Shown: positions 3,035-22,146, counted from the first letter of the stretch. The stretch: DNA of 32,000 bases from an uncultured Chloroflexia bacterium (GCA_963718915.1 CAVRAI010000004.1:240001-272000); one strand, 5' to 3'. Numbers and translations: made by a program. Notes: generated by a model not told the origin, from the sequence alone.

Positions 3035-3190
3035 TTCGGGCTGACACCCGCTGAGTTGCGTTGGTTTTGAAACAGCGTCTTGCGCGGATCCATGGCATGT
3101 TGCTAGAGTCTGATGCGCCCACGTCTGGCTGGCGTATTTACGGCGCTCAGCGCCCTGCCAGACGTGACGCGCGAGATGCTGGAGGAGTCG

Positions 3191-3753
3191 ATGCGATTTA
3201 TCTATCCGTTAGGAGCGAGTGCGCGGCTGCGGTCGCGCGCTGTCAGTCTGCTGCTTGGCGTGCTCCTGCTGGCGCTTGCCGCCTGCTCAACCTCAACGGC
3301 AACGAAGAGCGGCGCTCCAGCGGCAACTCCGACAGCCGTGGTGAGCGGGCCACTGGCGAGCGTCGTTGGCCCCGCGGCGCGCCCGCTGGCTCAGCGAATC
3401 GTCACGGAGTATGACGCCAGCGCGCAACAGGCGAAGATCACGCTGACGGTTGGCGCGGCTCCCGATGTCGCCACGGCGCAGGCGCGAGTCATGACGCTCA
3501 GCTTCCAGGTGCAGAGGCGGTCTGGGCGAGCAATCCCGCGCTGCATGAGGTGAAGGTGATCGTGCTCGGCCCGATTCGCGATGACTATGCCAACATCATC
3601 GACGATGCCTATGGCGTCTCCGATGTCTTCGCCCCCACCGCCGCGAAGCTATCATGGAGCGCCCTCACGCCTGTGAGCGCCTGGAGCCGCTACGATAGCA
3701 CCTGGCTGCGCCCCAGCTACTCCCCGAACTGGCTCTACGGCAAGAACAACTAG
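3191..3753 (+). pseudogene. Putative lipoprotein gene with an apparent 1-nt frame disruption near 3514
   Basis: RBS GGAGGAG at 3181-3187 and ATG at 3191. Signal peptide plus lipobox: LLLALAAC. Frame 2 ends at 3553. Frame 1 is open across the junction and reads ...EAVWASNPALHEVKVIVLGPIRDDY... through to 3753. Confidence 0.55.
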
Positions 3754-3924
3754 CAAACGATATAAGCGTCTTTGTTCGCGTCGCGCGCTTCCATGCCGCG
3801 GGCTAAAGACCTGCAGCTAAATTGTTCAATACGCCTCCGACCACGACTCGCTCCCCTGTTCCTGATCGCATGATGCCAGACTTTGTGGAATCCAGCGAAC
3901 AACCAAAGCCGTTCATCTCCTATC

Positions 3925-3953
3925 TTGTATAGGTTGCTAGCAAGTGCTATACT
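3925..3953 (+). promoter_or_regulatory. Candidate promoter of the TIR-domain gene
   Basis: TTGTAT (3925-3930), 17-nt spacer containing the palindrome TTGCTAGCAA, then TATACT (3948-3953). GAGG RBS at 3981-3984 and ATG at 3993. Confidence 0.3.
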
Positions 3954-3992
3954 TCGCGCCAAGGTTGCATTCGGTATTCTGAGGATAGCGCT

Positions 3993-4391
3993 ATGGCAAA
4001 TGCTTCTCCTCGTATCTCGCGCATTTTCGTAAGCCATTCCCACTACGATGATGGTTTCTGTCATCCGCTGGTCAACCGTATTCGGACTGCGCTTGGCATA
4101 GCGGATTCAGATACGATGTTCTATGATGTGGAGTCACTACGTGCTGGCGATGACTTTCTGCCCCGATTGCAGGAAGAAGTCGTATCGCGTCCGGTTTTCA
4201 TCGTCATCTTAACACCTCATTCAGTTGCGGCGAACTATGTCAAGCACGAGACAAATCTGGCGCTCCGCCTCACTATTGAACATCCAGAACGCCGTTTGAT
4301 TCCCGTGCTGGCGGAAGAGTGTGACCCGAATATGCTGGCCCCATCATTGATGGGCTACCAGATGGTGGATTTCGCCCATACAGAGCTATGA
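3993..4391 (+). CDS. TIR-domain protein, probably the N-terminal part of a TIR-TPR protein
   Basis: Bacterial TIR pattern: RIFVSHSHYDD...LRAGDDF...VFIVILTPHSVAANYVKHETNLA (conserved Glu in HE)...LIPVL...YQMVDF. The stop at 4389-4391 overlaps an open downstream frame. Confidence 0.8.
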   Translation: MANASPRISRIFVSHSHYDDGFCHPLVNRIRTALGIADSDTMFYDVESLRAGDDFLPRLQEEVVSRPVFIVILTPHSVAANYVKHETNLALRLTIEHPERRLIPVLAEECDPNMLAPSLMGYQMVDFAHTEL

Positions 4392-4416
4392 AGAGGCGCT
4401 GGGTCGACTTGTCACC

Positions 4417-5565
4417 GTGCTGGGTTCGCTGGGAAATAGCCTGGATACCAGTAAGAGTTTGTCCTCGTTCCACTCATCACCTCATGCGCTACAGACGCTT
4501 CAACTGGCTGCGCAAGCGCATGCCGCTGCTGAGGCAGGTGATTGGGATGAAACGATCTTGCAGGGTGAATTTGCTATATCATTCGCCGAGAATCAGTCAG
4601 ACGCTAATCTCTGGGCTGATCTTGCGAGCGCATACATCCATCGCGAGAAGTGGATACCGGCCAGCGAGGCGGCCCGACGGTCACTGGACCTTGATCCGTT
4701 TCGAGGTGATGTCTGGTCCACGTTGGCGGACTCACTCATGGCACAAGGCGACCTTGATAATGCGTTTGTAGCTATTGATCGAGCGCGCGCGATCACGTTG
4801 CCAACCCAGCCTGAACTCAGACAGGCGTTGCTCAAACAGCGAAGATACCTGCTCATCCGCCTGCAACGGTGGGATCTGGCGCTGGATAATATCAGGCAGG
4901 AACTTGCAGCCAACTCAACTGACCCAGTCGCAATTGCGACGCGAGATCAAATTCTGCAACGATTGGGGCAAGCAGGAGCCGTCATGCAGCATGGGAATCC
5001 GCACTCTGGCTCATTGCAAAGGCTGCCAGCTCTTGTCGCAAACAGGCAGTGGCCAACGCTTGATATTGCAGGTGCTGAGGCTCTTTCCAGCGAATCAAAT
5101 CCAGCTTCCCAGGGAGTGATATTTGATATGCAGCGCCGAATCAAACAGGCTAATCGAATATTTGGCTCATTGGTAGATGATAATTCAGCAGGATCTAATA
5201 GAGGAGGATCTAATGTTCGACGATCTCGGGGCGTCAGCGAAAGTGGCCAGTTTATCTATTGCTCGACTGCTCCGCATCCATGCAAGGAGAGCCTATCATC
5301 GCTGCTAAATGAAGGTCTAGAAATGCTTTACAGGGAGCTTATGAGCGATCCTCAGGCGAGGGACACGTTCTGGATTTCTCTGATTAGATTTGCAAACACA
5401 GCCACTCAAGTCCCATTTGTGCAAATCGATAGGTTTGTACCCCCCACCTTATCCACTGACTCATCCGGCAAGGATTCAGAGCAAGCAGCCAGAAGTTCAT
5501 TGTGGAGGCGACCTGCTTCGACCCCAAGCACCAAAGCCGAAATCCTCAGTAAGCAGATTAGATAG
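4417..5565 (+). CDS. TPR-repeat ORF, probably the continuation of the TIR ORF; 3' end unreliable
   Basis: This frame is open from 4351 and reads QSYEEALGRLVTVLGSL..., a natural TIR C-terminal continuation. TPR-like units follow (ANLWADLASAYIHREKWIPASEAARRSLDLDPFRGDVWSTLADSLMAQGDLDNAFVAIDRA). Beyond about 5213 the same frame runs into the vWA pseudogene. Confidence 0.6.
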   Translation: MLGSLGNSLDTSKSLSSFHSSPHALQTLQLAAQAHAAAEAGDWDETILQGEFAISFAENQSDANLWADLASAYIHREKWIPASEAARRSLDLDPFRGDVWSTLADSLMAQGDLDNAFVAIDRARAITLPTQPELRQALLKQRRYLLIRLQRWDLALDNIRQELAANSTDPVAIATRDQILQRLGQAGAVMQHGNPHSGSLQRLPALVANRQWPTLDIAGAEALSSESNPASQGVIFDMQRRIKQANRIFGSLVDDNSAGSNRGGSNVRRSRGVSESGQFIYCSTAPHPCKESLSSLLNEGLEMLYRELMSDPQARDTFWISLIRFANTATQVPFVQIDRFVPPTLSTDSSGKDSEQAARSSLWRRPASTPSTKAEILSKQIR

Positions 5566-5900
5566 CGCACTGCAGATACTTGAACATTCCATTAAACATG
5601 ATGTGAGGCCGAAAACGAGCAAGTAGCGTGGCGACTATCGCCCATTGGTATTTCTCTTTTCCAACGGACGGGCTACAAATGAACTTGGCGCGCCAAGTAA
5701 TTCCTATCAGACTGTGCTCATACGTATAAAAAACTTCACAGGTAACCAAAAACCTACCATCGTTGCACTTGGCTGTGGCCCGCAGGTTGATATGCGTCTC
5801 CTTCAATGAAGTCACATCGGAGGTCTATCTTATGCAAAATGTGACTCGCGACCAACTTCGTGCTTTCTTCCGCGACATGAGCGGATCCGCCATTGTGTGA
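5213..5900 (+). pseudogene. TerY-like von Willebrand factor A (vWA) gene, multiply frameshifted and carrying an in-frame TAG
   Basis: RBS GAGGAGG at 5201-5207 and ATG at 5213. The vWA sequence is spread over three frames: RKWPVYLLLDCSASMQGEPIIAAK (5217-5309), NEGLEMLYRELMSDPQARDTFWISLIRFANTATQVPFVQIDRFVPPTL (frame 1), LDSALQILEHSIKHDVRPKTSK-TAG(5624-5626)-RGDYRPLVFLFSNGRATNE...KPTIVALGCGPQVD (frame 2), and EVTSEVYLMQNVTRDQLRAFFRDMSGSAIV ending at 5898-5900 (frame 0). Confidence 0.7.
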
Positions 5901-6070
5901 CGCGCGTGCGAGAGGCCATCCGGACTTCTCATCTGACGCCAGCATGGAAGCGTCCAGAAGCGATTCCTGGCATCATCAAGTACGAACCTGAAGACTAGGC
6001 TGTTGTCGCGCACGATGTTGATTTAAGCCTGGGACCTACGCTAAGCAGTCGGGTGCAATACAAGCGTCGA

Positions 6071-7439
6071 TCACCACTTGAGGGATAGCCTGACGCCATC
6101 AGAGGCTATCGAAAGCCGTATGCCGTCATGAAGGCGAACCGCGTCCCCTACGCCAATTTGGTTGAATCCTCCTCCACCTGGAAGCGAAATATGTAACCCG
6201 ACAATGCCTTCGTTTCTGAGGTACCAGCCACGGTCGCCCACGCTATATTCAACGGTTGCATACTGACGCGCGGTGTTATCGTCTCCTGGAATGGGAGATT
6301 CACCACGAAAATGCCACGGATATAGCGCACGTCCTGGCCAGCCAACAACTTGACTGTCAGCTTCCGCAGTAGTAGTATCTTGTCCACTGTCTCCCTGGTC
6401 GCTCGCCTGGAATCGGAAATAGGGCAACTCTTCGGGGAAGAGCAACGGTGTCTCACACAATGAGCAGTGATATCCATCTCTATAAACAGCAGCAAAGTGG
6501 CGCTGGTCGCATGATGGGTTGGGACACGGTATTGTGGAATCGAAGAGTTCGATGAGCGCTCGTTCCCACTCCGTAGCGGTCGGTCGTAGAAGTGGCTGAT
6601 GTAAGCCATCGACAAAGGCTCGCCGGAATAGTGTCTGCATGCGAGGCGTAAGCGTCTCAGCGCTGATCCGCAGATTTTCTGGCCGATTTGAGCGATCCAC
6701 CGGATGCTCGATATAGAGCGCCTTCGCACCGAGCGCAAGCTGATCATCAAGGTCAGGATCCATATCATGATGTTTAGGACCAATAAGTGGATGACGATAG
6801 AGTAGCCAGCGGTAGAGTGTGACCGCGAGCGCATGGCGGTCAGTTAGTGGCGATGGACGGCGAGCTACCCCCATCACCAGTTCTGGGGCCAAGAACTCGC
6901 GTGACCCGAGGATATTCGTCGGCGCGCTATTTTGAATGACGATTCCATCACAATCCAGCAACACCATTCCGCCCTGGGCAGGATCGGCCATGATGTTTCG
7001 CGGGCATATATCGCCATGGCACATACCGGATGCATCGAGGAGCGCTATGGCACGCGCCAGCTTGATCGAGGTTGCCACACGGCCGAGCCAGGAGCCACGC
7101 CTGGCAGGCGGCAAGTCCTCAAATGACGTGCGGTAGAGGAAGTGATCCATGCGTACGCCATCGGAGATATTCCTCAACCGTATTCCAAGTCTGGGCGACT
7201 CAACTATGTTATCTGGCCAGGCATATAGCTCCGCCCATGGCTGAATCACCCGAGAACGCATCTCGCCGCTGATTAAGCGCTCTCAGCCGCTCAACGCGAT
7301 TCGCGTCGGCAGCATGAGGATAATACAGTTTGACCACATGTAAGCCATCAACAGAGCGAAAAACGTCTCCTTCCGCGCCACTCGCCAATGATTCATCTTC
7401 ATAGAGTTCCGACGAGCCATCGGTGAATCGTACTTCCAT
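6071..7439 (-). pseudogene. Ser/Thr protein kinase (YegI/TerY-P-type) with C-terminal Zn-ribbon and FHA-like region, with one frameshift near 7262-7275
   Basis: The N-lobe ORF (7439..7209) has SGAEGDVF...HVVKLYY...RVERLRAL, with GGAGG RBS upstream. The body ORF (7261..6071) has AWP, HGDICPRNIM (HRD-like), DCDG (DFG-like), REFLAPE (APE) and the Zn-ribbon CPNPSC...CSLC. The tail is FHA-like (GR...WYLRNEG...GDAVRLHDGIRLSI). The body frame is open upstream only to a TGA at about 7285. Confidence 0.8.
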
Positions 7440-7606
7440 TGCAGTCCTCCGTAAGTTTCGAATGATTGCTTGAAATCAAATAGGTAGAAGGTTTCGTCAT
7501 CAGGATACGTTAGGTTAATCAGTCACGATGCAATTTGCTCCCTTGGCAATGTGTCACAAGTATAAACTGCAATATGTATCTCGCACAATCCCCTAGGCTC
7601 ATTCGA

Positions 7607-9412
7607 TCAGCGGCGTCTGCCGAGACGCTCGCGCACGATGCCGCCGAGCAGACGCAATTCTTCGAGGTCGAGCAGCCGCGCCAGCGCAAAGTAGACCGCC
7701 ACGCCCGCGCCACCCGCTACCAGCAACAACAGCGCTGTGGCGAGCGTGCCTGAGCTATTGAGCGCCGGGATGAGCCGGGGCAGCAGCGAGAGCAGGCCGA
7801 AGCTCACGATGGCCATTGCCAGCGCCGCCAGCGCGATACGCCCCGCGCCATCCAATAGCTCGCGCATGCCCAGGTTGCCGATGGTCAGCGTCAGCAGCAC
7901 GAAGAGGATGAGCGCGTGGCTCACATTGAGCGCGGTATTGGCGAAGGCAATGGCGGGCATGCCAATGGTCGGGCCGAATGGAACGGCGATGGCGAGATAG
8001 AAGAGAATCGCGACGACACCGATGGCCGCTGGAGTGAGGGTGTTCTTGCGGGCATAAAACGCCGCGATCAGTAACTGATCGAGCGCGAGGAAGGGAAGCT
8101 GGTAGCTATAGTTGAGTAGCGCCAGCGCGTTGCGATACGAACAGCCGTTGGCCGCCTGGCAGGTTCCATGCTGGAAGAGCAACTCGACAATGGGATCGCG
8201 CAGGACGATCAGCCCCACCATCGCCGGAACCATCAGCAGCAGCCCCAGCCGGAATCCCAGAACCAGGATGCGCTTGAACTCGGGCGTCTCGCCATGATTG
8301 GCCGCGGCGGTCAGCGCGGGCAGCACGGCGAAGGTGAGCGCGGCGGCCACCAGCCCAACTGGAAACTGGATGAGCGTCGTGGCGCTCTGGAGCGCGGTCG
8401 CGTTGGCCAGCGGATTGCCAGGCGTGCGGCCAATGAGAAAGAGGTCGAGGTTCTGCTGGGCGAAGATGATGAGCAGAAAGCCCACGATGGGGGCATAGAG
8501 CCGCACTATTTGACGCACCGCTGGATGGCGCAGATCGAGGATCGGTCGCCAGGAAATGCCTGTCTTGCGCAGGCCGGGCAGCAGAAACAAGAATTCGCCC
8601 AGCGCGCCCACCACCGCTCCGACCGCCAGCCCGCGCGCGCCCAGCAGATGCGCCTGCTCCACGACTGGCGATCCGCTGTTCTGAAAGAGTTCGCTGAGCG
8701 GTAGGTGAAGCTGCGCCGCGACGAGCAGCAGCCCAATCACGCCGCCGACGACGATGCCGACGTGAAAGATGCCCGTGGCAAACGCCGGAAGAATGACCTC
8801 TTTGAGTGCGTAGAGCAGCGCCGAGGTGACGGCGTAGAGTCCCAGCCCGAACAGCGCGAAGGCGGCGATGCGCACCAGCTCGATGGCGAGCGCCTCGCTG
8901 GTGGGATCGACAAGGTTGGGGTCGATCCAGAATGGGACAAGCGATGGCGCGGCCAGCAGCAAGATCAGCGCGGCGATAGCAAGCGCGATGACGACCAGAT
9001 TGAGAATGGTGCTGTAGGCGCGGCGCAGGCGCTCGCGGTGGGCGGGATCGCCATAGTCGACGAAGGTGGGGATCAGCGCGCCACTGACCGAGCCAGCCAC
9101 GACAAGATCGCTCACCTGCTGGATCGGCCGGAGCGCGATGATGAATGCGCCGCTGGCCGCGCCATAGAACAGCACGTTGAGCGTCTCGATACGTACGAGG
9201 CCCAGCACGCTGCTGAGAAGCTGCCCGACCATGATGATCGCCGCCGCCGCGACGATGCGTCCGCGCGCGCCGCTGGCGCCGGTTGGGCTGGCCGTTGGCG
9301 AGGTCAGCGCGCTGGCGATTGCTGTTTCGTCGTCGGCGATGTTCGTGGGTAAGGGCGCGTCATCATGGTCGGGCATCGGCGTCAGGCCCATAACGCGCGA
9401 CGATGAGGTCAA
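7607..9412 (-). CDS. murJ: Lipid II flippase MurJ/MviN with a low-complexity N-terminal extension
   Basis: About 14 predicted hydrophobic helices. MurJ-like N-terminal core IIMVGQLLSSVLGLVRIETLNVLFYGAASGAFIIALRPIQ...GALIPTF. The start is uncertain (9412, 9391 or 9376), and all candidates overlap the hldC 3' end. Confidence 0.85.
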   Translation of the reverse strand: MTSSSRVMGLTPMPDHDDAPLPTNIADDETAIASALTSPTASPTGASGARGRIVAAAAIIMVGQLLSSVLGLVRIETLNVLFYGAASGAFIIALRPIQQVSDLVVAGSVSGALIPTFVDYGDPAHRERLRRAYSTILNLVVIALAIAALILLLAAPSLVPFWIDPNLVDPTSEALAIELVRIAAFALFGLGLYAVTSALLYALKEVILPAFATGIFHVGIVVGGVIGLLLVAAQLHLPLSELFQNSGSPVVEQAHLLGARGLAVGAVVGALGEFLFLLPGLRKTGISWRPILDLRHPAVRQIVRLYAPIVGFLLIIFAQQNLDLFLIGRTPGNPLANATALQSATTLIQFPVGLVAAALTFAVLPALTAAANHGETPEFKRILVLGFRLGLLLMVPAMVGLIVLRDPIVELLFQHGTCQAANGCSYRNALALLNYSYQLPFLALDQLLIAAFYARKNTLTPAAIGVVAILFYLAIAVPFGPTIGMPAIAFANTALNVSHALILFVLLTLTIGNLGMRELLDGAGRIALAALAMAIVSFGLLSLLPRLIPALNSSGTLATALLLLVAGGAGVAVYFALARLLDLEELRLLGGIVRERLGRRR

Positions 9413-12128: not shown

Positions 12129-14024
12129 ATGGACCTTGTCAAACGACTGGAAGAGTACCGCGAACGCGAACGCTCATTGTCGTGGGAGGGAACCTTCGCG
12201 CAGTACTTCGAGATTGCGACGCGCCAGCCATCGGTGGCGCAGCTCTCGCACGAGCGAATCTATTCGATGATAATGGCCGACGGCACGGAAACGAACCGCC
12301 TCGGCGAGTCACAGTATAAGTTCTTCGATCAGGAAATCTTTGGTATCGAAAAGTCGCTGCAGCAGATTGTGGAATATTTCCGATCGGCGGCGCAGCGGCT
12401 GGAGGTGCGTAAGCGCATCTTGCTGCTCATGGGCCCGGTTGGCGGCGGGAAGTCTACCATCGTCAGTCTGCTCAAGCGCGGGCTGGAAGAGTATACGCGC
12501 GCCGAGGCGGGTGCGGTCTATGCCATCAGAGACTGCCCGATGCATGAAGAACCGCTCCACTTGATCCCACAGGAGCTCCGCGCCGACGTCGAGAAAGAAT
12601 TTGGCCTTTACATCGAAGGCGAACTCTGCCCGAAATGTCGCTGGATGCTCGAAAGTACCTACGACAACAAAATCGAGTCGGTGCCCGTGGTGCGCATTCC
12701 CTTCAGCGAGAAGCACCGCACCGGCATCGGCACCTTCACGCCGTCTGATCCAAAGAGCCAGGATATCGCCGAATTGGTCGGAGGCATAGATCTTTCTACT
12801 ATTGGTGAGATTGGGACCGAAAGCGATCCACGCGCCTATCGCTTTGATGGCGAACTCAACATTTCCAACCGCGGCATGATGGAATTTGTTGAGCTGTTGA
12901 AAGTGGATGAGAAATTCCTGTACGTCCTGCTGACCCTCTCGCAGGAGCAGAACATCAAGACAGGCCGCTTCTCGATGATCTATGCGGACGAGGTGGTCGT
13001 CTCGCATACCAACGAGACGGAATATCGCGCCTTCGCTGGCAATCGTAAGTCCGAAGCGCTGCAGGATCGCATTATTCTGGTGCGGGTGCCGTATAACCTG
13101 CGCGTCTCCGATGAAGTGAAGATCTACGATAAGCTACTCGGGCAGAGTGCGCTCACGAACGTGCATATTGCGCCGCATACGTTGCGCGTTGCCAGTATGT
13201 TTGCCATTCTTACCCGGCTGGAACAGTCGAACAAAGTGGGCATGAGCCTGATGAAGAAGCTCAAGCTCTACGATGGTGAAGACCAGGAAGAGTTCAAGCA
13301 GAAGGACATCCGCGAGCTTCAGGAGGAGGCCGAGCGCGAAGGCATGGAGGGCATCTCGCCCCGCTATGTCATCAACCGGCTCTCCAGCGCCCTGGTGCGC
13401 GATGGCGTCACGTGCATCAACGCGATTGACGCGCTCCGGGCGTTGCGTGATGGGCTGGATCAGCATACCAGCATCAACCGCGAGCAGCGCGAGCAATACC
13501 TCAATTTCATCAGTGAGGCGCGCAAAGAGTACGACGAGATGGCCAAGAAGGAAGTGCAGCGGGCATTCGTCTATTCCTTTGAGGAGTCGGCGCGTACCCT
13601 GCTCAACAACTACCTGGATAACGTCGAGGCGTACTGCAACCGCACCAAGGTGCGCGATCCCATCACCGACGAAGATATGGAGCCAGACGAGCAGTTGATG
13701 CGCTCGATTGAGGAGCAGATTGGCATCACGGAGAACGCGAAGAAGACCTTCCGCGAGGAGATTCTGATTCGTATCTCGTCGCTGGCCCGGCGCGGACAGA
13801 CGTTTGACTATAACAGTCACGAACGCCTGAAAGAGGCCATCGAAAAGAAGCTCTTCGCCGACCTGCGTGATGTGGTCAAAATTACGACGTCGTCGCGGAC
13901 GCCCGACCCCGAGCAGCTCAAGAAGTCGAACGAGGTGGTCGCTCGGTTGATCGCCGACTTCGGCTACTGTACTGTCTGCGCGAACGAACTGTTGAAGTAT
14001 GTCGGCTCGCTGCTGAACCGCTAG
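12129..14024 (+). CDS. prkA: PrkA-family serine protein kinase / AAA+ ATPase
   Basis: 631 aa. Walker A LLLMGPVGGGKST. The sequence looks PrkA/YeaG-like end to end (MDLVKRLEEYRERE...). RBS GAGGGG upstream. Confidence 0.95.
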   Translation: MDLVKRLEEYRERERSLSWEGTFAQYFEIATRQPSVAQLSHERIYSMIMADGTETNRLGESQYKFFDQEIFGIEKSLQQIVEYFRSAAQRLEVRKRILLLMGPVGGGKSTIVSLLKRGLEEYTRAEAGAVYAIRDCPMHEEPLHLIPQELRADVEKEFGLYIEGELCPKCRWMLESTYDNKIESVPVVRIPFSEKHRTGIGTFTPSDPKSQDIAELVGGIDLSTIGEIGTESDPRAYRFDGELNISNRGMMEFVELLKVDEKFLYVLLTLSQEQNIKTGRFSMIYADEVVVSHTNETEYRAFAGNRKSEALQDRIILVRVPYNLRVSDEVKIYDKLLGQSALTNVHIAPHTLRVASMFAILTRLEQSNKVGMSLMKKLKLYDGEDQEEFKQKDIRELQEEAEREGMEGISPRYVINRLSSALVRDGVTCINAIDALRALRDGLDQHTSINREQREQYLNFISEARKEYDEMAKKEVQRAFVYSFEESARTLLNNYLDNVEAYCNRTKVRDPITDEDMEPDEQLMRSIEEQIGITENAKKTFREEILIRISSLARRGQTFDYNSHERLKEAIEKKLFADLRDVVKITTSSRTPDPEQLKKSNEVVARLIADFGYCTVCANELLKYVGSLLNR

Positions 14025-14165
14025 TCCCACGGCCCGGAAGCGTCGTCACCCCTTGTGGCGAAATACTCCGGGCTGTCACCCCGACCCTGGCAATCTGGCA
14101 GTCGGCGCGGTATGGCTGGCCGACCGGGATCACGCTATCCGGGTGGAATCGCGGGAGAAATGGGC

Positions 14166-15326
14166 ATGAAAAACTATACATCCAGCATCTCGCGGCATGA
14201 CTGGTCGTTGCACCGTAAGGGCGCGATTGACCAGGAGCGCCACAAACAGAAGATTCGCGAGGCAATCAAGAAGAACCTCGCCGATATCGTGAGCGAAGAA
14301 GCCATCATCCTCTCTGATGGCAAGAAGATCGTGCGCGTGCCGATTCGCTCACTGGAGGAGTATCGGTTCCGCTACGATCCCGGTCGCGAGCAGCATAGCG
14401 GGCAGGGTAACGGCAAGAGCAAAGTGGGCGATGTCGTGGCAGCCGATCCGCAGCGCGGACGCGGCAAGCGTGGCGACGCGGGCGACGAGCCGGGCGTTGA
14501 CTACTACGAGGCGGACGTCACGGTGGACGAGCTGGCCGCGCTCATTTTCGAGGATCTGGGGCTGCCCTTCCTCGAAGAGAAGAAACTAGCGGAGATGGAG
14601 ACGGAGGCTGTCCGCTTCACCGACGTGCGCAAAGTGGGGCCACTGGCCAATCTCGACAAGCGCCGCACGATCATGGAGAATATCAAGCGCAACGCGGCCA
14701 AGGGTGATCCGCATCTCAAGAACCTCAAGAATGAGGATCTGCGGTTCAAGGTCTGGGAGCCGACGATCAAATATCAGTCGAACGCGGTCGTGCTGGCCAT
14801 GATGGACATCAGTGGTTCGATGGGCGAGTTCGAGAAGTACATCGCGCGCAGCTTCTACTTCTGGATGGTGCGCTTCCTGCGGACCAAATATAACAACGTA
14901 CATATCGTCTTCATCAGCCACCACACTGAGGCTCAGGAGGTGACCGAGGAAGAGTTCTTCACCCACGGCGAGAGTGGAGGCACGCAGGTATCCTCCGCCT
15001 ATGAGTTGGCGCTACAGATTATTGGCGAACGCTACAATCCCGACGACTGGAATATCTATCCCTTCCACTTCTCTGATGGCGATAACCTTCCCTGGGATAA
15101 CGAGCGGTGCGTCCAGCTGGTTCAGCAACTGATGGGCATCTGCAATATCTTCGGCTACGGCGAGATTCGCGAGGGACACTATCGTTCACCCAGCACGCTG
15201 ATGTCGGCCTATAGCAAGATTCAGGAGGAGAAGTTCATCGCGGTGACGATTTCCGATAAGTCGGAGGTTTACCCGGCGTTGCGCCACTTCTTCGCCACCC
15301 GCGATCCCGCGACGGCGCTCCCCTGA
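14166..15326 (+). CDS. yhbH: YhbH/YeaH (DUF444) family protein with a vWA-like MIDAS motif
   Basis: The N-terminus ...RHDWSLHRKGAIDQERHKQKIREAIKKNLADIV matches the YhbH family. MIDAS-like MMDISGSM. The track ORF starts at 14055, but GGGAG at 14153-14157 favours the ATG at 14166 (or 14160). Confidence 0.9.
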   Translation: MKNYTSSISRHDWSLHRKGAIDQERHKQKIREAIKKNLADIVSEEAIILSDGKKIVRVPIRSLEEYRFRYDPGREQHSGQGNGKSKVGDVVAADPQRGRGKRGDAGDEPGVDYYEADVTVDELAALIFEDLGLPFLEEKKLAEMETEAVRFTDVRKVGPLANLDKRRTIMENIKRNAAKGDPHLKNLKNEDLRFKVWEPTIKYQSNAVVLAMMDISGSMGEFEKYIARSFYFWMVRFLRTKYNNVHIVFISHHTEAQEVTEEEFFTHGESGGTQVSSAYELALQIIGERYNPDDWNIYPFHFSDGDNLPWDNERCVQLVQQLMGICNIFGYGEIREGHYRSPSTLMSAYSKIQEEKFIAVTISDKSEVYPALRHFFATRDPATALP

Positions 15327-15377
15327 CGCACACGCTCGTCGCCCTGGCGCACTTCGCCGTGAAAGGAAGGCACGAGG

Positions 15378-16841
15378 ATGCCTGAAGCAATCACCAACGA
15401 GCAGTATGTCGCCGAGTTGGGCGACGCTATCGAAAAGATATGGGAAATTGCGCTCCGCATGGGCCTGGATCCGTTCCCGGTCAACTTCGAGCTGGTGCCA
15501 GCCACCATCATGTACGAATTTGGCTCGTATGGGCTGCCCGGTCGGTTCAGCCACTGGTCGCGCGGCAAAGCCTACTACCGCATGAAGACCGACTATGACT
15601 ATGGCCTGAGCAAGATTTACGAGCTGGTCGTCAATACCAATCCGTCCTACGCCTTTCTGATGGAGCAGAACGACTTGCTGCAAAACAAGGTGGTGGTGGC
15701 GCATGTGCTCGGCCATACCGATATGTTCAAGCACAACACCTACTTCAACCGCACACCGCCCAACATGATCGATAAGGTCAGTGTGAACGCTGACCGTATC
15801 CGCAAATATGAATATGAGCATGGCGCGATTCAAGTCGAGCGCTTTCTTGATGCGGTTCTGGCCATTGAAGAGCATATCGACCCCAACTTCCGCATTCGCC
15901 GGTTGAATGACGCCGAGGCCGAAGAGCAGCAGCGCAAAGGGAAGACTCCCCGCACGACAGAGTATGATGATCTATGGACCCTAGACGAGCGCGCCGCTGA
16001 CCGCAAGCGCAATGGAGACGACGCGCGGTTCCGCGCCAAGACGCGTCGCTTCCCGGCGCAGCCACAGAAAGATGTGCTGCTCTTCCTGGCGGAGCATGCG
16101 CCCGACCTCGAGCTGTGGCAGCGCGATATCCTGCTCATCGTTCGAGAAGAAATGCAATACTTCGTCCCACAAATGCAAACAAAAGTACTTAACGAGGGAT
16201 GGGCATCTTACTGGCATGCGCATATCATACGTGAACTGGAATTGACCGACGGCGAGTATGCGTCATTCGCCCAGATGCACGCAGGCGTGCTGGCGCCGAA
16301 TCGTATGCGCATCAACCCATATCACGTCGGCTATCACATCCTCGAAGATATCGAGCGACGCTGGGATAACCCGACCGAAGAGGAGCAAGCGAAACTGGGC
16401 CGTGTTCCTGGGCAGGGGCGCGCGAAGATATTCGAGGTACGCGAGACCGAAAGCGACGTCTCGTTGCTCCGCAATTACCTCACCGAAGAGTTGGTGAAAG
16501 AGCTGGACCTCTACCTGTATCGCAAAGAGGGCGACCAGTGGGTGATCGTTGAGAAGAACTGGGAGAAGGTGCGCGACGGCATCGTCAGTAGTATGACGAA
16601 CTTTGGCTATCCGTATCTGACCGTCAACGACGCCGACTACAACCGTAACACCGAGCTATTGCTGCGCCACCATGTCGAAGGCAGTCGCGATCTGGATATC
16701 CCCTATGCTGAGAAGACGCTGGAGCACGTCTACCGCATCTGGGGGCGGCCGGTGCATCTGGAAACCATTTCCGATGAGCGGCCGGTGCGGATGACCTACA
16801 ACGGCGAGAAGCATACCCAGGCGTTGCTCGACGACGATTGA
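15378..16841 (+). CDS. spoVR: SpoVR/YcgB family protein
   Basis: FELVPATIMYEFGSYGLPGRFSHWSRGKAYY...YELVVNTNPSYAFLMEQN...HVLGH, typical of SpoVR. It is the third gene of the conserved prkA-yhbH-spoVR triad. Confidence 0.95.
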   Translation: MPEAITNEQYVAELGDAIEKIWEIALRMGLDPFPVNFELVPATIMYEFGSYGLPGRFSHWSRGKAYYRMKTDYDYGLSKIYELVVNTNPSYAFLMEQNDLLQNKVVVAHVLGHTDMFKHNTYFNRTPPNMIDKVSVNADRIRKYEYEHGAIQVERFLDAVLAIEEHIDPNFRIRRLNDAEAEEQQRKGKTPRTTEYDDLWTLDERAADRKRNGDDARFRAKTRRFPAQPQKDVLLFLAEHAPDLELWQRDILLIVREEMQYFVPQMQTKVLNEGWASYWHAHIIRELELTDGEYASFAQMHAGVLAPNRMRINPYHVGYHILEDIERRWDNPTEEEQAKLGRVPGQGRAKIFEVRETESDVSLLRNYLTEELVKELDLYLYRKEGDQWVIVEKNWEKVRDGIVSSMTNFGYPYLTVNDADYNRNTELLLRHHVEGSRDLDIPYAEKTLEHVYRIWGRPVHLETISDERPVRMTYNGEKHTQALLDDD

Positions 16842-18345: not shown

Positions 18346-19251
18346 TCACCCAAAGCGACCCGTGATGAAATCCTCCGTCTGTCGTTTCTGCGGACGTGAA
18401 AATAGCTGCCCGGTCGGCGCATATTCCACCATATTGCCGGTGAGAAAGAACCCGGTATACTGTGAGACGCGCGCCGCTTGCTGCAGATTGTGGGTGACGA
18501 TGGCAATAGTGTAGCGTTGCCGAAGCTGCTCGATCAGTTCCTCAATCTTGAGCGTCGCGATGGGGTCGAGCGCCGAGCATGGCTCGTCCATCAGGATCAC
18601 TTCGGGTTCTACCGCCAGCGCCCGCGCGATGCAGAGACGCTGCTGCTGGCCACCAGACAGGCTGAGCGCGCTCTGGTTGAGCCGATCCTTCACCTCATCC
18701 CACAGCGCCGCGCCGCGCAGACTCCGCTCCACCACCCCCTTCAGTTCGTTCGATTTGTGCCCCCCCTGAACCCGCAAACCATAAGCGACATTTTCAAATA
18801 TGGATTTCGGGAAAGGATTAGGGCGCTGAAAGACCATGCCCACCCGCTGACGCAGATGCACCACGTCGGCGTCTGACGCATAGATGTCCTCACCGTCAAG
18901 CAGGATCGTGCCCGTTATCCGAGCGGAAGGCGTCAGATCGTGCATGCGGTTGAGCGCCCGTAAGAAGGTAGATTTGCCGCAGCCAGACGGTCCCATTAGC
19001 GCCGTCACCTGGCCCTCGGGGATGTCTACGGAAATGTCTTTGATCGCATGCGTCTGGCCATAGTAGATGTTCAAATCATTGATACGAATCTTGACAGGAT
19101 CGGTGAGTTTTGCGATGGCGGGCTCGTCACCAGCAGACGTGCTAGTCCCGTTCGCTGCCCCTTCCGAGTTGTCTGATGTATCTGCTGGTCGAAGCTCCAT
19201 CGCCTGATTCTGCCTCTCAGCTACTATATATTGAAAAGTAGTTGGGTTCAT
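18346..19251 (-). CDS. pstB: Phosphate ABC transporter ATP-binding protein, second paralog, with an N-terminal extension of about 45 aa
   Basis: [29 protein letters not shown] and the C-terminal ...[10 protein letters not shown] typical of PstB. The ATGA start/stop overlap with the upstream pstB supports the start at 19251. Confidence 0.9.
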
Positions 19252-20000
19252 CCGAATCGTCCTGTCACATAGTCCTCGGTTTCTTTACGCTCTGGTTGAG
19301 AGAAAATGGTTGCGGTAGCGCCAATCTCGATGAGACGCCCCTGGAGAAAGAACGCTGTCCGATCAGCGACACGGGCAGCTTGTTGCATGTTGTGTGTCAC
19401 CACTACGATGGTGTATTGCTGCTTGAGCCGATGCATGAGATCTTCGATTTGTTGTGTTGCGATGGGATCGAGCGCGGATGCGGGCTCATCCATCAGCAGA
19501 ACATGCGGCTCGACCGCCAGCGCTCGCGCGACACAGAGCCGCTGTTGTTGCCCACCGGAAAGCTGCGCGGCTGAGGTATGTAAGCGATCTTTTACCTCAT
19601 CCCAAATCGCCGCATGTCGAAGGCTCCGTTCCACAATTTCGCCTACTTCCCGCCTGGGAGCCAGTCCGTTGAGTCGAACACCAACCGCCACATTCTCGAA
19701 AATGCTGCGAGTAGGAAGCACGTTCGGCTGTTGAAAGACCATGCCAATCTGACGGCGTACGTAGATCGGGCGAATGGTTCGATCATAGATATCTGTGCCT
19801 TCGACAAGCACGGTTCCGGCTATTCGGGTTCCTGGCGCCTCCTCGTGCATGCGGTTGAGGCAACGTACAAATGTGGATTTACCGCATCCCGAGGGGCCGA
19901 TCAGGGCCGTGACCGAATGAGGCTGAATTGTTAGATTAATATCATGCAACGCCTGAGTTTTTCCGTACCATGCGTTTAGTTGTTTTACCTCAACCGTCAT
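19248..20000 (-). CDS. pstB: Phosphate ABC transporter ATP-binding protein PstB
   Basis: 250 aa canonical PstB: [29 protein letters not shown], ...[10 protein letters not shown]. Confidence 0.95.
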
Positions 20001-20051
20001 TGATCATTTCTCTCCTGTCACTGGTATCCGGTAGGAAAACCCGATTCACGA

Positions 20052-20951
20052 TTAACGGCGAGTCTTGAAGCCGCCAGTTGCCCAGCGCACCGCCAGTGAC
20101 GTGATGATGACCAACATCATCAGCACAAATGATCCTGCATACGCCTGGTTGATCTGCACATCGTACGGACTGCGAGTGTAGTAAAAAACCTGTAGTGGTA
20201 GCGTCGCTATTGGCCGAAAAATATCCACATTGAAGAACTGGCTCCCAAACGCCGTCATCAGGAGAGGCGCAGTCTCTCCCGCAACGCGCGCAATGGCCAG
20301 CATAATACCTGTGATGATTCCGCTGATGGCGGCAGGCACCACAACCCGGAAGATCGTGCGTGACTCTGTCGCGCCAAGCGCTACCGAGGCTTCACGCAGC
20401 TCTTTCGGTACCAATCGAAGCACTTCTTCAGTTGTGCGTGCGACGGTTGGAATCATGATGATTGCCAGCGCCAGGCCGCCCGACAGCCCCGAAAATGAGT
20501 GCGACGGCACCACAATCAGCACCCAGATGAATAACCCGAAAATGATGGTAGGGAGACCGGTCAGCATATCTACCAGAAATCGTACTACAGTTGCCAGCCA
20601 GCCCCGGCCGAATTCCGCAAGATAGATGCCCGTAAACAGACCCAGCGGAATCCCGAAAAGCGCGGCTAATCCGACAACGAGCAGAGAGCCAACAATTGCA
20701 GGCTGCACGCCACCTCCCGACTCACCGAGGGGAGCTGGAGGCTGAGTGAAGAACGCAATGTTGAGGAAACGAAGCCCTTGTCGGGCAACGAAGACAATGA
20801 AATATGTCAGAAAGGCAATGGTGGCGACAGCGAATGCCGTTACGAGTGCCGCCGCTATGATAGCAATTACCCGGCGCCGAAGGTGCAATGAGCCTTTGGG
20901 CGGCGCAAACAAGCCAGATCGTTGCGCCTCGTTTTGCACGGTTATACTCAT
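20052..20951 (-). CDS. pstA: Phosphate ABC transporter permease PstA
   Basis: Multi-TM permease with an EAA-like loop (EASVALGATESRTIFRVVVP). It is the second permease in pstSCAB order and overlaps pstC by 4 nt. Confidence 0.9.
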   Translation of the reverse strand: MSITVQNEAQRSGLFAPPKGSLHLRRRVIAIIAAALVTAFAVATIAFLTYFIVFVARQGLRFLNIAFFTQPPAPLGESGGGVQPAIVGSLLVVGLAALFGIPLGLFTGIYLAEFGRGWLATVVRFLVDMLTGLPTIIFGLFIWVLIVVPSHSFSGLSGGLALAIIMIPTVARTTEEVLRLVPKELREASVALGATESRTIFRVVVPAAISGIITGIMLAIARVAGETAPLLMTAFGSQFFNVDIFRPIATLPLQVFYYTRSPYDVQINQAYAGSFVLMMLVIITSLAVRWATGGFKTRR

Positions 20952-21964
20952 TTCGAGACTCCCTCGGCGCGGAGTCGCCCCAACCGTGTGACTAGCACAC
21001 GCGCCAGGATATTCGTGATCAAGGTAATAATCAGCAGAAGCAGCCCAGCCTCCAGCACAGCCGAGACGAAAATTCCAGGTGTTGCTTCACCAAACTGGTT
21101 GGCAATGACACTGGCAAGTGTGTACCCCGTGTTGAACAAACTGAGGCTAGGCGGCGACGCCTGGTTGCCAATGACGCTTGTCACGACAATGGTCTCACCC
21201 AGGGCGCGCCCCAACCCCAAGAGCGCCGCGCCAGCGATACCAACACGCGAGAACGGGAGAACAGCGTAGCGGATAACTTCCCATCGCGTCGCTCCGAGCG
21301 CTAGCAACGCTTCCCGCTGTGACGTTGGAACATTGAGCATCACCTCGCGCGAAATTGCTGTAATGATGGGAATGATCATCACAGTAAGGAGCATGCCTGC
21401 CGCGAGCAGCCCTAAGCCGTGCGGCGTCCCCTGAAAAAATGGGAGAAAGCCGAAGTGCTGCTGTAACCAGGGTTCTCCTTTGAGTTGGAGCCACGGAACC
21501 ATGACCAGAAATCCCCATAGCCCAAGCACCACGCTCGGTATCGCTGCCAGCAAATCTAGCAAAAAGGCGAATGGCGCTCGTATGCGCCGTGGGCAATAGT
21601 CCACCAGAAAGATAGCTGTACCTACGCCAATCGGTAGTCCAAAGAGCAGCGCGAAGAGTGACGTGACAAAGGTGCCAAAGATAGCGGGTGCTACACCATA
21701 TTTGTTGTGAACGGGATCAAAGGCGTCATAGGTAAGATAACTCAGTCCATTGGTCGTGATTGATTGCCATGAAGTACTTACTAGCACCCAGGTTAAACCA
21801 AGAACAATTAGGATGACCACGGACACAAAGAATATCAAGGCCCCGCGAAATATGAGGTTGCCCGGTCGTCGTGCCTCGATGCGCAATCGTGTTCTCGCCT
21901 GTGCTATCCATTCACGCGTGCGTGCTCGGATGTCATTCAAAGATGCTTCTACGGGAATCTGCAC
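20948..21964 (-). CDS. pstC: Phosphate ABC transporter permease PstC
   Basis: Multi-TM permease with an EAA-like loop (REALLALGATRWEVIRYAVLP). It is the first permease after pstS. Confidence 0.9.
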   Translation of the reverse strand: MQIPVEASLNDIRARTREWIAQARTRLRIEARRPGNLIFRGALIFFVSVVILIVLGLTWVLVSTSWQSITTNGLSYLTYDAFDPVHNKYGVAPAIFGTFVTSLFALLFGLPIGVGTAIFLVDYCPRRIRAPFAFLLDLLAAIPSVVLGLWGFLVMVPWLQLKGEPWLQQHFGFLPFFQGTPHGLGLLAAGMLLTVMIIPIITAISREVMLNVPTSQREALLALGATRWEVIRYAVLPFSRVGIAGAALLGLGRALGETIVVTSVIGNQASPPSLSLFNTGYTLASVIANQFGEATPGIFVSAVLEAGLLLLIITLITNILARVLVTRLGRLRAEGVSK

Positions 21965-22146
21965 GTTGTATCACCACCCTCGCTATCGGTTGCGATCGGC
22001 TGTGTCTCTATTCGCTGCAAAGGGTTCCTTTTGCACATTGTGGCAGCCCTCCAGAGTATCGAGCCTGAGGAGACTCGTTGGAGGACTGCCCAATTTCTAG
22101 AGGGTAGCGGGCGATTTACCGCTATAGCCTCTTCACCAAAGTTAAA

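What the first reader, a model, noticed from the sequence alone, without database searches (positions are those of the whole stretch)
3760..7606. Lower-GC accessory island with a TIR-TPR / TerY-like vWA / kinase-ZnR-FHA-like gene set, every member disrupted
Between the lipoprotein gene and murJ the composition drops visibly; 60-nt samples I counted give about 47-53% GC against roughly 57% and up in the flanks. The coding potential is of the biological-conflict or signalling type. It comprises a TIR domain with the conserved Glu followed by TPR repeats, a TerY-like vWA gene with its own strong RBS, and a convergent YegI-like Ser/Thr kinase with a CxxxxC...CxxC ribbon and an FHA-like tail. vWA plus S/T kinase plus PP2C is the known TerY-phosphorylation triad (E. 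coli yegI/yegK/yegL type), reported as phage-defence associated. Here no PP2C is present, the kinase is convergent rather than co-operonic, and a TIR-TPR gene sits directly upstream of the vWA gene. That combination is not a described system as far as I know. All three genes are broken, so the locus looks like a decaying, horizontally acquired module. Intact homologues elsewhere could define a new TIR-linked variant of the vWA/kinase systems.
Basis: partly seen in the sequence, partly recalled or inferred. Interest (0 to 1): 0.7.

Follow-up and report, generated by a model that had tools for sequence, protein, structure and literature searches.

The report
Degraded TIR-linked vWA–kinase defence-like island
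A 3.9-kb low-GC insert between a lipoprotein gene and murJ carries a damaged copy of a rare three-gene module (a TIR-TPR protein, a TerY/YegL-like vWA protein and a YegI-like kinase), which is an offshoot of the known vWA–phosphatase–kinase "TerY-P" triad that has lost the phosphatase and gained a TIR protein; intact copies exist in other soil bacteria and could be tested.

Summary
GC falls from 0.60-0.69 to 0.48-0.56 across about 3754-7606, and GC3 falls from 0.71-0.85 to 0.44-0.54. The island encodes three genes. TIR-TPR lies on the + strand at 3993-5184. A TerY/YegL-like vWA lies on the + strand at 5213-5989. A convergent kinase with a Zn ribbon and an FHA-like tail lies on the - strand at 7439-6071. 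There is no PP2C anywhere in the window.

The kinase family sits in co-directional vWA-PP2C-kinase triads in 63 of 73 instances examined, never with a TIR. The window's closest relatives (55-67% identity) form one clade with the same TIR-TPR > vWA > < kinase layout, intact, on two metagenome populations. A sister locus pairs a TIR-TPR-FGE-sulfatase protein with a kinase-vWA fusion plus a vWA. TIR-kinase and vWA-TIR fusion proteins also exist. The adjacency is therefore conserved and not fortuitous. I found no description of it in the literature I could search.

One caveat matters. The vWA gene is clearly dead, with five indels and one nonsense codon. The single frameshifts in TIR-TPR and the kinase may be assembly errors, because three unrelated genes in the window are also frameshifted.

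Verdict: a new variant of a known kind. Function is inferred: a kinase/vWA switch controlling a TIR NADase.

The parts
3754..7606 (.). Low-GC island, inserted between the 3' ends of two convergent host genes (lipoprotein gene and murJ)
   Evidence: GC is 0.48-0.56 against 0.60-0.69 in the flanks. GC3 is 0.44-0.54 against 0.71-0.85. Related modules elsewhere have GC 0.52-0.58.
3993..5184 (+). TIR-TPR gene. The TIR domain spans about 4023-4382 and the TPR region 4384-5184. There is one frameshift at about 4383-4386. The stop position reads TCA, so the frame stays open to 5565.
   Evidence: Pfam TIR_2 E=6.5e-17, plus TPR_2/TPR_14. It is 60% identical over its full length to the intact 398-aa P0121.
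4248..4250 (+). Codon for Glu86 of the TIR domain. This position is the catalytic Glu in TIR NADases.
   Evidence: The Glu is conserved in all seven aligned TIRs of this group, including the TIR-kinase and vWA-TIR fusions. Its catalytic role is inferred from established knowledge of TIR NADases.
5199..5204 (+). Ribosome-binding site (AGGAGG), 6 nt upstream of the vWA start codon
   Evidence: Read from the sequence. Equivalent sites are GAGGAGG in L003 and GGGAGGG in L007.
5213..5989 (+). TerY/YegL-like vWA pseudogene. It has five indels (about 5230, 5304, 5507, 5800, 5898) and an in-frame TAG at 5624-5626. It carries the subfamily's 24-28 aa insertion at the MIDAS Thr loop, and SNG in place of TDG.
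   Evidence: tblastn of intact L003/L007/L005 vWA proteins gives HSPs in three frames, E=1e-40. Alignment, junction sequences. The L003 vWA matches E. coli YegL at E=6e-15.
6071..7439 (-). YegI-like Ser/Thr kinase with a Zn ribbon and an FHA-like tail, convergent with the vWA gene. There is one frameshift at about 7237-7245; it is otherwise intact.
   Evidence: Pkinase E=3e-7. It is 55-60% identical to the intact P0002 and P0003. Catalytic K37, D143, N148, D162/D164 and APE are conserved. The AF2 model and Foldseek indicate a eukaryote-like kinase fold. E. coli YegI aligns through the kinase domain and Zn ribbon, E=2e-5.
6455..6526 (-). Zn ribbon (CxxxxC ... CxxC)
   Evidence: The four Cys are invariant or at least 90% conserved across 33-47 family members.
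6074..6424 (-). FHA-like beta-sandwich tail of the kinase
   Evidence: The AF2 model of window:6074-6541 has pLDDT 84. Nearly all top PDB matches by Foldseek are FHA domains (APLF, aprataxin, PNKP, Rad53, Rv1747), with E 0.03-0.5 and prob up to 0.99. Pfam FHA gives no hit.
3113..3753 (+). Left flank: a lipoprotein gene (host composition), itself split by a frameshift at about 3490-3510
   Evidence: Three-frame translation shows a lipobox, LLALAAC, and a C-terminal part in another frame. GC3 is 0.73-0.85.
7607..9412 (-). Right flank: a 601-aa polytopic membrane-protein ORF, intact. Its 3' end abuts the island.
   Evidence: A 601-aa ORF. GC3 is 0.81.

Best explanation
The island is a horizontally acquired, now non-functional copy of a rare three-gene module. 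The module descends from the TerY-P triad (TerY-like vWA + PP2C phosphatase + Ser/Thr kinase with a Zn ribbon).

In this offshoot the phosphatase gene is gone and the kinase gene is inverted, so that it converges on the vWA gene. A TIR-TPR gene sits immediately upstream of the vWA gene and is probably co-transcribed with it: the gap is 21-28 nt and the vWA has its own RBS.

Shown:
- the domain content;
- the descent of the kinase and vWA from triad-type relatives;
- conservation of the layout in intact form in divergent relatives;
- the degenerate MIDAS site and the 24-28 aa insertion shared by the variant vWA proteins;
- the death of the vWA gene in this window.

Inferred:
- In the intact module, the kinase (whose FHA-like tail could bind phospho-threonine) and the vWA protein form a phosphorylation-dependent sensor switch, as proposed for TerY-P.
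- The TIR-TPR protein is the output. Its TPR part would dock onto the vWA/kinase pair or a foreign protein. Its TIR domain (conserved Glu86) would cleave NAD+, either to stop growth of an infected cell or to make a signal.
- Without a phosphatase the switch would be one-way.

In this genome the module cannot work, because the vWA gene carries six lesions.
For: Composition. The island's GC and GC3 are far below the flanks and close to the GC of related modules elsewhere.

Family context. Of 73 kinase instances with context, 63 have a PP2C gene nearby and none of those has a TIR. TIR occurs only where PP2C is absent.

Clade. The window, P0002 (L003) and P0003 (L005) group together in a neighbour-joining tree, nested among Chloroflexota triad kinases.

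Conserved layout. L003 reads kinase > < vWA < TPR C-terminus. L007 reads TIR-TPR (398 aa, intact) > vWA. L005 reads kinase > < vWA C-terminus.

Shared derived vWA features. The variant vWA proteins share the insertion and the T->S and TDG->TAG/SNG changes. The nearest canonical vWAs (P0130-P0134) lack these features, and the one whose genomic context was retrieved (P0130) sits with PP2C and a kinase.

Independent TIR links. L079 has a divergent TIR-TPR-FGE-sulfatase protein whose TIR-TPR part is homologous to the window's (E=2e-22). It lies next to a kinase-vWA fusion and a vWA, with no PP2C. P0063 is a TIR-kinase fusion and P0179 is a vWA-TIR fusion.

Active-site residues. Kinase catalytic residues and the TIR Glu are conserved.

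Decay. vWA lesions were mapped against intact homologues and include a nonsense substitution, which consensus indel error would not produce.

Definition of the triad. PMC11090510 (citing Anantharaman 2012 and Gao 2020) defines TerY-P as vWA + PP2C + STK-ZnR, proposes it to be a phosphorylation switch, and notes that a related form with an OB fold is anti-phage.
Against: No experiment exists on any member, and defence function is inferred from domain content alone.

PADLOC models do not recognise the vWA, the kinase (beyond generic kinase similarity) or the module.

Only two independent intact populations of the exact layout were found, all on contigs of 3 kb or less. Other genes of the module could therefore lie off-contig, and a PP2C gene could sit further away.

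The family is rare. Scans of JGI metagenome contigs and of 185,579 species genomes found no further example.

A 34%-identical TIR-TPR (L008) and a 230-aa TIR relative (L009) are not next to vWA or kinase genes.

Horizontal origin rests on composition alone. No integrase, tRNA or flanking repeats were found here.

The frameshifts in TIR-TPR and the kinase may be assembly errors.
Confidence: 0.6

Rival explanations
1. The module is intact and working in the organism, and the disruptions are artefacts of an indel-prone (probably long-read) metagenome assembly.
For: Three unrelated genes in the window are also split by single indels. The lipoprotein gene is split at about 3500. The aldehyde dehydrogenase has an extra G in the ELGGK motif at about 28262. 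The 2Fe-2S oxidoreductase is split at about 31005. Some island indels lie in short runs: GGGG at 5228 and TT at about 7240. The contig is 1.05 Mb, and related MAG contigs carry names typical of long-read assemblies.
Against: The background rate is about one indel per 9 kb, which predicts about 0.08 indels in the 0.78-kb vWA gene. Five are seen, plus a TAG nonsense substitution and a stop-position substitution in TIR-TPR, and these are not indel-type errors. Several indels are not in homopolymers.
Confidence: 0.15
2. The adjacency is fortuitous. TIR-TPR is a stand-alone conflict gene that happens to lie beside a PP2C-less vWA/kinase pair, as defence genes often cluster in islands.
For: TIR-TPR relatives occur without vWA or kinase genes (L008, L009, L077). 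PP2C-less vWA-kinase pairs occur without TIR (L030, L043, and the second pairs in L010 and L014).
Against: The same order and tight spacing are kept across 55-67% protein identity in three populations. A rearranged version occurs in a sister lineage (L079). Direct TIR-kinase and vWA-TIR fusions exist. TIR never co-occurs with PP2C in 73 instances.
Confidence: 0.12
3. It is a cellular signalling module rather than a defence module. It could be a stress, metal or developmental phospho-switch of filamentous Chloroflexota, in which the TIR-TPR protein acts as a scaffold or adaptor and not as an NADase.
For: TerY-P was first proposed as a metal-sensing phosphorylation switch linked to tellurite resistance (Anantharaman 2012, as cited in PMC11090510). 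TIR domains can act as adaptors. PADLOC gives no defence-system match.
Against: The TIR Glu is conserved. The distribution is patchy and island-like, with foreign composition, and one relative has an integrase neighbour. Loss in this genome looks more like accessory conflict genes than core signalling. The association with FGE-sulfatase-type variable binding domains is a theme of conflict systems (PMC7159879).
Confidence: 0.13

Closest known systems
TerY-P triad (TerY-like vWA + PP2C phosphatase + Ser/Thr kinase fused to a Zn ribbon; Anantharaman, Iyer and Aravind 2012, as summarised in PMC11090510 and PMC7159879). The E. coli example is yegL-pphC ... yegI.
   Same: The vWA is homologous to YegL (E=6e-15) and the kinase to YegI through the kinase domain and Zn ribbon (E=2e-5). 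The kinase has the Zn ribbon plus beta-rich tail that PMC7159879 describes for triad kinases. Relatives at 29-47% identity sit in canonical triads.
   Different: There is no PP2C gene. The kinase is convergent rather than co-operonic. A TIR-TPR gene lies directly upstream of the vWA. The vWA has an inserted loop and has lost the MIDAS Asp.
TerY-P anti-phage system of Gao et al. 2020 (kinase fused to an OB fold)
   Same: It has the same three-part logic and is the only version with experimental anti-phage evidence (PMC11090510).
   Different: The kinase tail here is a Zn ribbon plus an FHA-like domain, not an OB fold. The PADLOC STK_OB model matches only marginally (E=0.003) over the kinase core, and there is no PADLOC hit for the vWA.
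vWA-MoxR (VMAP / iSTAND) ternary conflict systems with TIR or FGE-sulfatase effector domains fused to the vWA component (Kaur et al. 2020, PMC7159879)
   Same: Both share the theme of a vWA protein coupled to a TIR effector and, in L079/P0125, to an FGE-sulfatase domain. Both occur in multicellular or filamentous bacteria, including Chloroflexota.
   Different: There is no MoxR AAA+ ATPase here. The vWA is of the small TerY/YegL type, and the partner is a kinase.
Bacterial TIR-domain NADase defence proteins (Thoeris ThsB, short-pAgo-associated TIR, SAVED-TIR)
   Same: The TIR_2 domain has the conserved Glu. It gives weak PADLOC similarity to Aga_TIR models, and the fusion proteins are similar to ThsB and SAVED-TIR models.
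   Different: There is no ThsA, Argonaute or CBASS partner. The TIR is fused to TPR repeats and linked to vWA and kinase genes.

Membership tests
TerY-P triad (Anantharaman 2012) | TerY/YegL-like stand-alone vWA protein | tested here: met
   The remnant aligns to an intact 254-aa vWA (E=1e-40). That protein's homologues are named YegL by JGI and carry PF00092, and it matches E. coli YegL at E=6e-15. In the window it is a pseudogene.
TerY-P triad (Anantharaman 2012) | Ser/Thr kinase fused at the C-terminus to a Zn ribbon | tested here: met
   Kinase motifs and four conserved Cys are present. The fold is eukaryote-like kinase. YegI aligns through the ribbon.
TerY-P triad (Anantharaman 2012) | PP2C-family phosphatase gene in the same neighbourhood | tested here: not met
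   tblastn with three triad PP2C proteins finds nothing in 32 kb (best E=0.02, at an unrelated site). PP2C is also absent from L003, L005, L007 and L079 within their contigs.
TerY-P triad (Anantharaman 2012) | Co-directional operon vWA-PP2C-kinase | tested here: not met
   The kinase is on the opposite strand and converges on the vWA, both in the window and in L003/L004/L005.
TerY-P defence system (Gao 2020; PADLOC) | Kinase with a C-terminal OB fold; match to PADLOC TerY-P/STK_OB models | tested here: not met
   STK_OB scores E=0.003 over the kinase core only. There are no PADLOC hits for the vWA. The tail is FHA-like.
TIR domain (Pfam TIR_2), NADase type | Match to TIR_2 above the gathering score | tested here: met
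   62.6 bits against a cutoff of 28, E=6.5e-17.
TIR domain (Pfam TIR_2), NADase type | Conserved catalytic glutamate | tested here: met
   Glu86 aligns with a Glu in all seven related TIRs. Equating it with the catalytic Glu of known NADases rests on the motif position ([YW]V..E), not on a structural superposition.
TIR domain (Pfam TIR_2), NADase type | NAD+ cleavage activity | not testable with these tools
   This needs a biochemical assay.
FHA domain | FHA beta-sandwich fold | tested here: inconclusive
   Nearly all of the top 30 Foldseek PDB matches are FHA domains, but E is 0.03-0.5 and TM (target-normalised) is 0.60 or less.
FHA domain | Sequence match to Pfam FHA and the phospho-Thr-binding residues (GR, SxxH, N) | tested here: inconclusive
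   Pfam FHA gives no hit. The invariant GWPxR, WH and N residues sit in the expected order, but the Ser of SxxH is not conserved.
vWA-MoxR ternary systems (Kaur 2020) | MoxR-type AAA+ ATPase partner | tested here: not met
   All coding capacity of the island is accounted for by three genes, and there is no AAA+ match.
Pseudogene (real decay rather than assembly error) | Lesion density far above the background of the same contig, including errors that are not indels | tested here: met
   This is met for the vWA only, which has five indels and a TAG in 0.78 kb, against three indels in about 28 kb of flank. For TIR-TPR and the kinase (one indel each) the test is inconclusive.

The most novel reading that the evidence does not exclude
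The intact relatives of this island define a previously undescribed TIR-armed, phosphatase-less branch of the TerY-P family. In this branch a YegI-like kinase with an FHA-like tail and a MIDAS-degenerate TerY-like vWA protein would act as a one-way phospho-switch that triggers a TIR-TPR NADase. TIR has been joined to TerY-P parts in several apparently separate configurations: the neighbouring TIR-TPR gene in the window clade, the rearranged TIR-TPR-FGE-sulfatase neighbour in the sister lineage L079, a TIR-kinase fusion and a vWA-TIR fusion (at least two of them independent acquisitions). This would give the first concrete output for a signalling triad whose mechanism is still unknown.
Probability: 0.35. 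Interest if true: 0.7.

Novelty: new variant of a known kind. Interest (0 to 1): 0.5.

Why it matters
TerY-P triads are widespread. They include E. coli yegL-pphC-yegI, occur inside many McrBC/CoCoNuT loci, and in one form are anti-phage. What the vWA/kinase/phosphatase switch actually controls is unknown.

This branch replaces the phosphatase with a TIR protein, and relatives fuse TIR directly to the kinase or to the vWA. That points to NAD+ cleavage as one possible output. It also offers small three-gene constructs (L003; L005+L007) that can be synthesised and tested.

For this genome the result is more modest. The island is a foreign insert whose vWA gene is dead. The window also shows that single frameshifts in this assembly should not be read as pseudogenes without read-level support.

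Tried and rejected
- PADLOC scans of the reconstructed and intact proteins gave no TerY-P or other system-level match, only generic kinase and TIR similarity.
- NCBIfam gave nothing informative.
- I looked up the window's own kinase ORF (P0001) to identify the source record. It is not on record, and the cluster look-up gave no names or accessions. The organism is therefore inferred only from relatives (Ktedonobacteria/Chloroflexia MAGs).
- A metagenome-contig scan with the TIR-TPR alignment returned one locus (L077), with two other TIR proteins and no vWA or kinase.
- Viral-contig scans with the kinase and TIR-TPR alignments returned nothing.
- I searched for remnants of PP2C, of the L005 integrase, and of extra triad-neighbour genes in the window. 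None were found.
- No tRNA genes were found. No flanking direct or inverted repeats mark the island ends.
- The promoter and terminator scan found no more sites than in shuffled sequence.
- My first reconstruction of the kinase frameshift, at about 7277, was wrong. tblastn with intact homologues places it at about 7237-7245.
- I considered a natural TIR-TPR-vWA fusion, because the TIR-TPR frame runs into the vWA gene. I rejected it because the vWA N-terminus with the DxSxS motif lies in another frame, and L003 and L007 have a stop plus an RBS at that position.
- A sequence search of the PDB with the TIR-TPR protein matched only TPR proteins, so no solved TIR was available for a residue-level check.

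Full report
**1. What is in the sequence**

GC in 400-nt windows drops to 0.48-0.56 between about 3800 and 7600. It is 0.60-0.67 to the left and 0.61-0.69 to the right. The contrast is sharper at third codon positions. GC3 is 0.44-0.54 for the island's reading frames and 0.71-0.85 for 13 of the 14 flanking ORF segments measured (12 genes, with the lipoprotein gene measured as two pieces); a pstS-like gene is 0.63. The island (about 3754-7606) lies between the 3' ends of two convergent host genes.

Three-frame translation and tblastn with intact homologues resolve three genes.

- TIR-TPR, + strand, 3993-5184. Pfam TIR_2 scores E=6.5e-17 and TPR_2/TPR_14 match. It is 60% identical over the whole length to an intact 398-aa protein, P0121.
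- A TerY/YegL-like vWA, + strand, 5213-5989, preceded by AGGAGG.
- A Ser/Thr kinase, - strand, 7439-6071, convergent with the vWA. It has conserved K37, D143, N148, D162/D164 and APE, and four conserved Cys forming CxxxxC...CxxC.

An AlphaFold2 model of the closest intact kinase (P0002, pLDDT 91.8) matches eukaryote-like protein kinases. I also modelled the window's own C-terminal 156 residues (pLDDT 84). That model retrieves almost only FHA domains from the PDB (APLF, aprataxin, PNKP, MEK1, Rad53, Chk2, M. tuberculosis Rv1747). The scores are modest, with E 0.03-0.5 and target-normalised TM up to 0.60. Pfam FHA does not match.

No PP2C remnant exists anywhere in the 32 kb.

**2. Are the genes really broken?**

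Measured against intact homologues, the lesions are as follows.

| Gene | Lesions |
|---|---|
| TIR-TPR | One frameshift (about 4383-4386). The codon that is the stop in L003 and L007 reads TCA, so the frame runs on to 5565. |
| vWA | Five indels (about 5230, 5304, 5507, 5800, 5898) and an in-frame TAG (5624-5626). |
| Kinase | One frameshift (about 7237-7245). |

The window's other genes are not clean either.

- The lipoprotein gene changes frame at about 3490-3510.
- An aldehyde dehydrogenase (27396-29004) is split exactly at its ELGGK motif by an extra G (Pfam Aldedh positions 7-238 and 235-461 fall on two ORFs).
- A FAD/NAD/2Fe-2S oxidoreductase has its Fer2 domain split at about 31005.

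That makes three indels in about 28 kb of ordinary genes, or one per 9 kb or so. This is typical of an indel-prone assembly. The contig is 1.05 Mb, and relatives come from MAGs with contig names in the style of long-read assemblies.

At that rate, two indels in the 2.6 kb of TIR-TPR plus kinase are only mildly unexpected (about 0.28 expected). Five indels plus a nonsense substitution in the 0.78-kb vWA gene are not (about 0.08 expected). I therefore accept decay for the vWA gene and leave the other two open.

**3. What family is it?**

The kinase has about 120 homologues of about 470 aa, several named by JGI with the COG4248 (YegI) description. E. coli YegI aligns with P0002 through the kinase domain and the Zn ribbon (22% identity, E=2e-5). 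E. coli YegL aligns with the variant vWA at E=6e-15.

I fetched 62 loci from one genome per species with a kinase alignment and annotated them with HMMs built from the session's own sequences. This is the TerY-P triad as defined in the literature: TerY-like vWA, PP2C, and STK fused to a Zn ribbon (PMC11090510). PMC7159879 also notes the Zn ribbon plus 'beta-strand-rich domain' on the kinase. None of those 63 has a TIR protein nearby.

**4. The variant is conserved**

The window's three closest kinases behave differently. P0002 (58% identity; contigs L003/L004 from two Logan runs) is followed by a convergent 254-aa vWA. Upstream of that vWA lies the C-terminal 175 aa of a TPR protein that is 55% identical to P0121 and aligns well with the window's TPR region. 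P0003 (55%; L005, JGI sample 3300067034) is followed by a convergent vWA C-terminus. From the same sample, L007 carries the intact TIR-TPR P0121 followed 21 nt later by a vWA N-terminus.

In a neighbour-joining tree, the window, L003 and L005 form one clade, with P0004 and P0007 as the next branches. The clade is nested among Chloroflexota triad kinases.

The variant vWA proteins share derived characters:

- a 24-28 aa insertion at the MIDAS Thr loop;
- Thr replaced by Ser;
- the TDG Asp replaced (TAG in L003, SNG in the window).

The nearest canonical vWAs (P0130-P0134, about 50% identity) keep T and TDG. The one whose context I retrieved (P0130, L073-L076) sits with PP2C and a kinase.

P0007, on a branch adjacent to the variant clade, is a kinase fused to a degenerate vWA. 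Its locus (L079) also holds a separate vWA (TGG in place of TDG) and a divergently transcribed 718-aa TIR-TPR-FGE-sulfatase protein. The TIR-TPR part of that protein is homologous to the window's (E=2e-22). L079 again has no PP2C.

Two further proteins fuse the parts directly. P0063 is a TIR-kinase fusion (L006) and P0179 is a vWA-TIR fusion (L072); both come from one JGI sample.

The TIR link has therefore survived a rearrangement and also appears as separate fusion proteins, and it is mutually exclusive with PP2C in the sample examined. Phylogenetic non-independence means the effective number of events is about three or four, not the raw count.

**5. Rarity and limits**

A word-indexed search found only eight TIR-TPR relatives. 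Exhaustive HMMER over 1.84 billion representatives found 28 at E<=1e-30, many of them 600-720 aa (probably with FGE-sulfatase), and two more full-length TIR-TPR proteins, P0249 and P0252.

Scans of JGI metagenome contigs and of viral contigs added nothing. All intact examples of the exact layout lie on contigs of 3 kb or less, so further partner genes, or a distant PP2C, cannot be excluded. More distant TIR-TPR or TIR relatives (L008, L009, L077) are not linked to vWA or kinase genes.

**6. How it most likely works (inference)**

TerY-P is proposed to be a phosphorylation-dependent switch, and a form with an OB fold is a stand-alone anti-phage system (PMC11090510). In the variant, the kinase keeps its catalytic residues and its FHA-like tail, and the vWA keeps DxSxS but has a remodelled MIDAS. 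The reset enzyme, PP2C, is replaced by a protein whose TIR domain keeps the Glu used by TIR NADases (Glu86) and whose TPR array can dock proteins.

The simplest model is that the kinase and vWA sense a trigger, phosphorylation recruits or releases TIR-TPR, and the TIR domain consumes NAD+ or makes an ADPR-derived signal. Without a phosphatase the response would be irreversible. I put about 0.35 on this mechanism. I put about 0.8 on the three genes being one functional unit in the intact relatives.

In the window the vWA gene is dead, so the module is a relic whatever the state of the other two genes.

**7. Known or new?**

The parts and the parent triad are known. TIR-vWA coupling is a known theme in the unrelated vWA-MoxR ternary systems (PMC7159879). 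I found no paper linking TIR to TerY-P components. Only general defence surveys mention both terms. PADLOC does not detect the module.

It fails two defining features of the TerY-P triad (PP2C and the co-directional operon), so I do not file it as a member. I file it as a new variant derived from the triad.

Interest is moderate. The window's copy is degraded and sits in an error-prone MAG, but the intact relatives offer a testable output for a poorly understood signalling triad.

Noticed in passing
window 27396-29004 (junction about 28262): An aldehyde dehydrogenase gene is split into two ORFs by one extra G inside the conserved ELGGK motif (GAGCTTGGGCGGCAAG). Pfam Aldedh positions 7-238 and 235-461 fall on separate ORFs. 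This is probably an assembly indel.
   Followed up: yes
window 3113-3753 (junction about 3490-3510): The lipoprotein gene flanking the island (lipobox LLALAAC) changes frame near its middle. It has host-like GC3, so the frameshift is not a feature of the island.
   Followed up: partly
window 29993-31288 (junction about 31005): In a FAD/NAD-binding oxidoreductase, the C-terminal 2Fe-2S ferredoxin domain is split between two frames (CRAGICGSCKLR in one, MLEGEVDQ...GYVLSCIAHP in another). This is the third frameshift in a non-island gene.
   Followed up: partly
window 12129-16841: An intact prkA - DUF444 (yeaH-like) - spoVR operon. This is a conserved stress or sporulation-associated trio of poorly understood function.
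   Followed up: no
window 18346-23265: A phosphate-type ABC transporter cluster on the - strand: two ABC ATPase genes, two BPD_transp_1 permease genes and a PBP_like_2 binding-protein gene. A PAS histidine kinase gene follows at 23476-24933.
   Followed up: no
L079 146-5074 (ENA ERZ1761212): A divergently transcribed TIR-TPR-FGE-sulfatase protein (718 aa) lies next to a kinase-ZnR-FHA-like protein fused to a degenerate vWA (P0007, 699 aa). A separate vWA with TGG in place of TDG follows. No PP2C is on the 5.3-kb contig.
   Followed up: partly
L006 392-2305 and L072 627-1682 (both JGI sample 3300085371): One metagenome holds both a TIR-kinase fusion (P0063, 637 aa) and a vWA-TIR fusion (P0179, 351 aa, canonical TDG) at separate loci with unrelated neighbours. 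If they come from one organism, TIR-TIR contacts could bring the kinase and the vWA together.
   Followed up: partly
L010 3273-9416 and L014 1953-9413: Two Chloroflexota MAGs each carry a canonical vWA-PP2C-kinase triad directly beside a second vWA-kinase pair that has no PP2C of its own.
   Followed up: no
L005 185-1012: A tyrosine recombinase (Phage_integrase) gene lies directly upstream of the kinase of an intact variant module. This hints that the module travels on a mobile element. No such gene or remnant is present in the window.
   Followed up: partly
L077 7533-9630: Two adjacent TIR proteins of the same TIR subfamily, one with an N-terminal extra domain and one TIR-FGE-sulfatase, with no vWA or kinase nearby. 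The TIR subfamily is therefore used in several other architectures.
   Followed up: no
window 5181-5210: A tandem pair of 15-nt units (TAATTCAGCAGGATC / TAATAGAGGAGGATC, 80% identical) spans the lost TIR-TPR stop region and the vWA RBS. It may be a small duplication associated with the stop loss.
   Followed up: no
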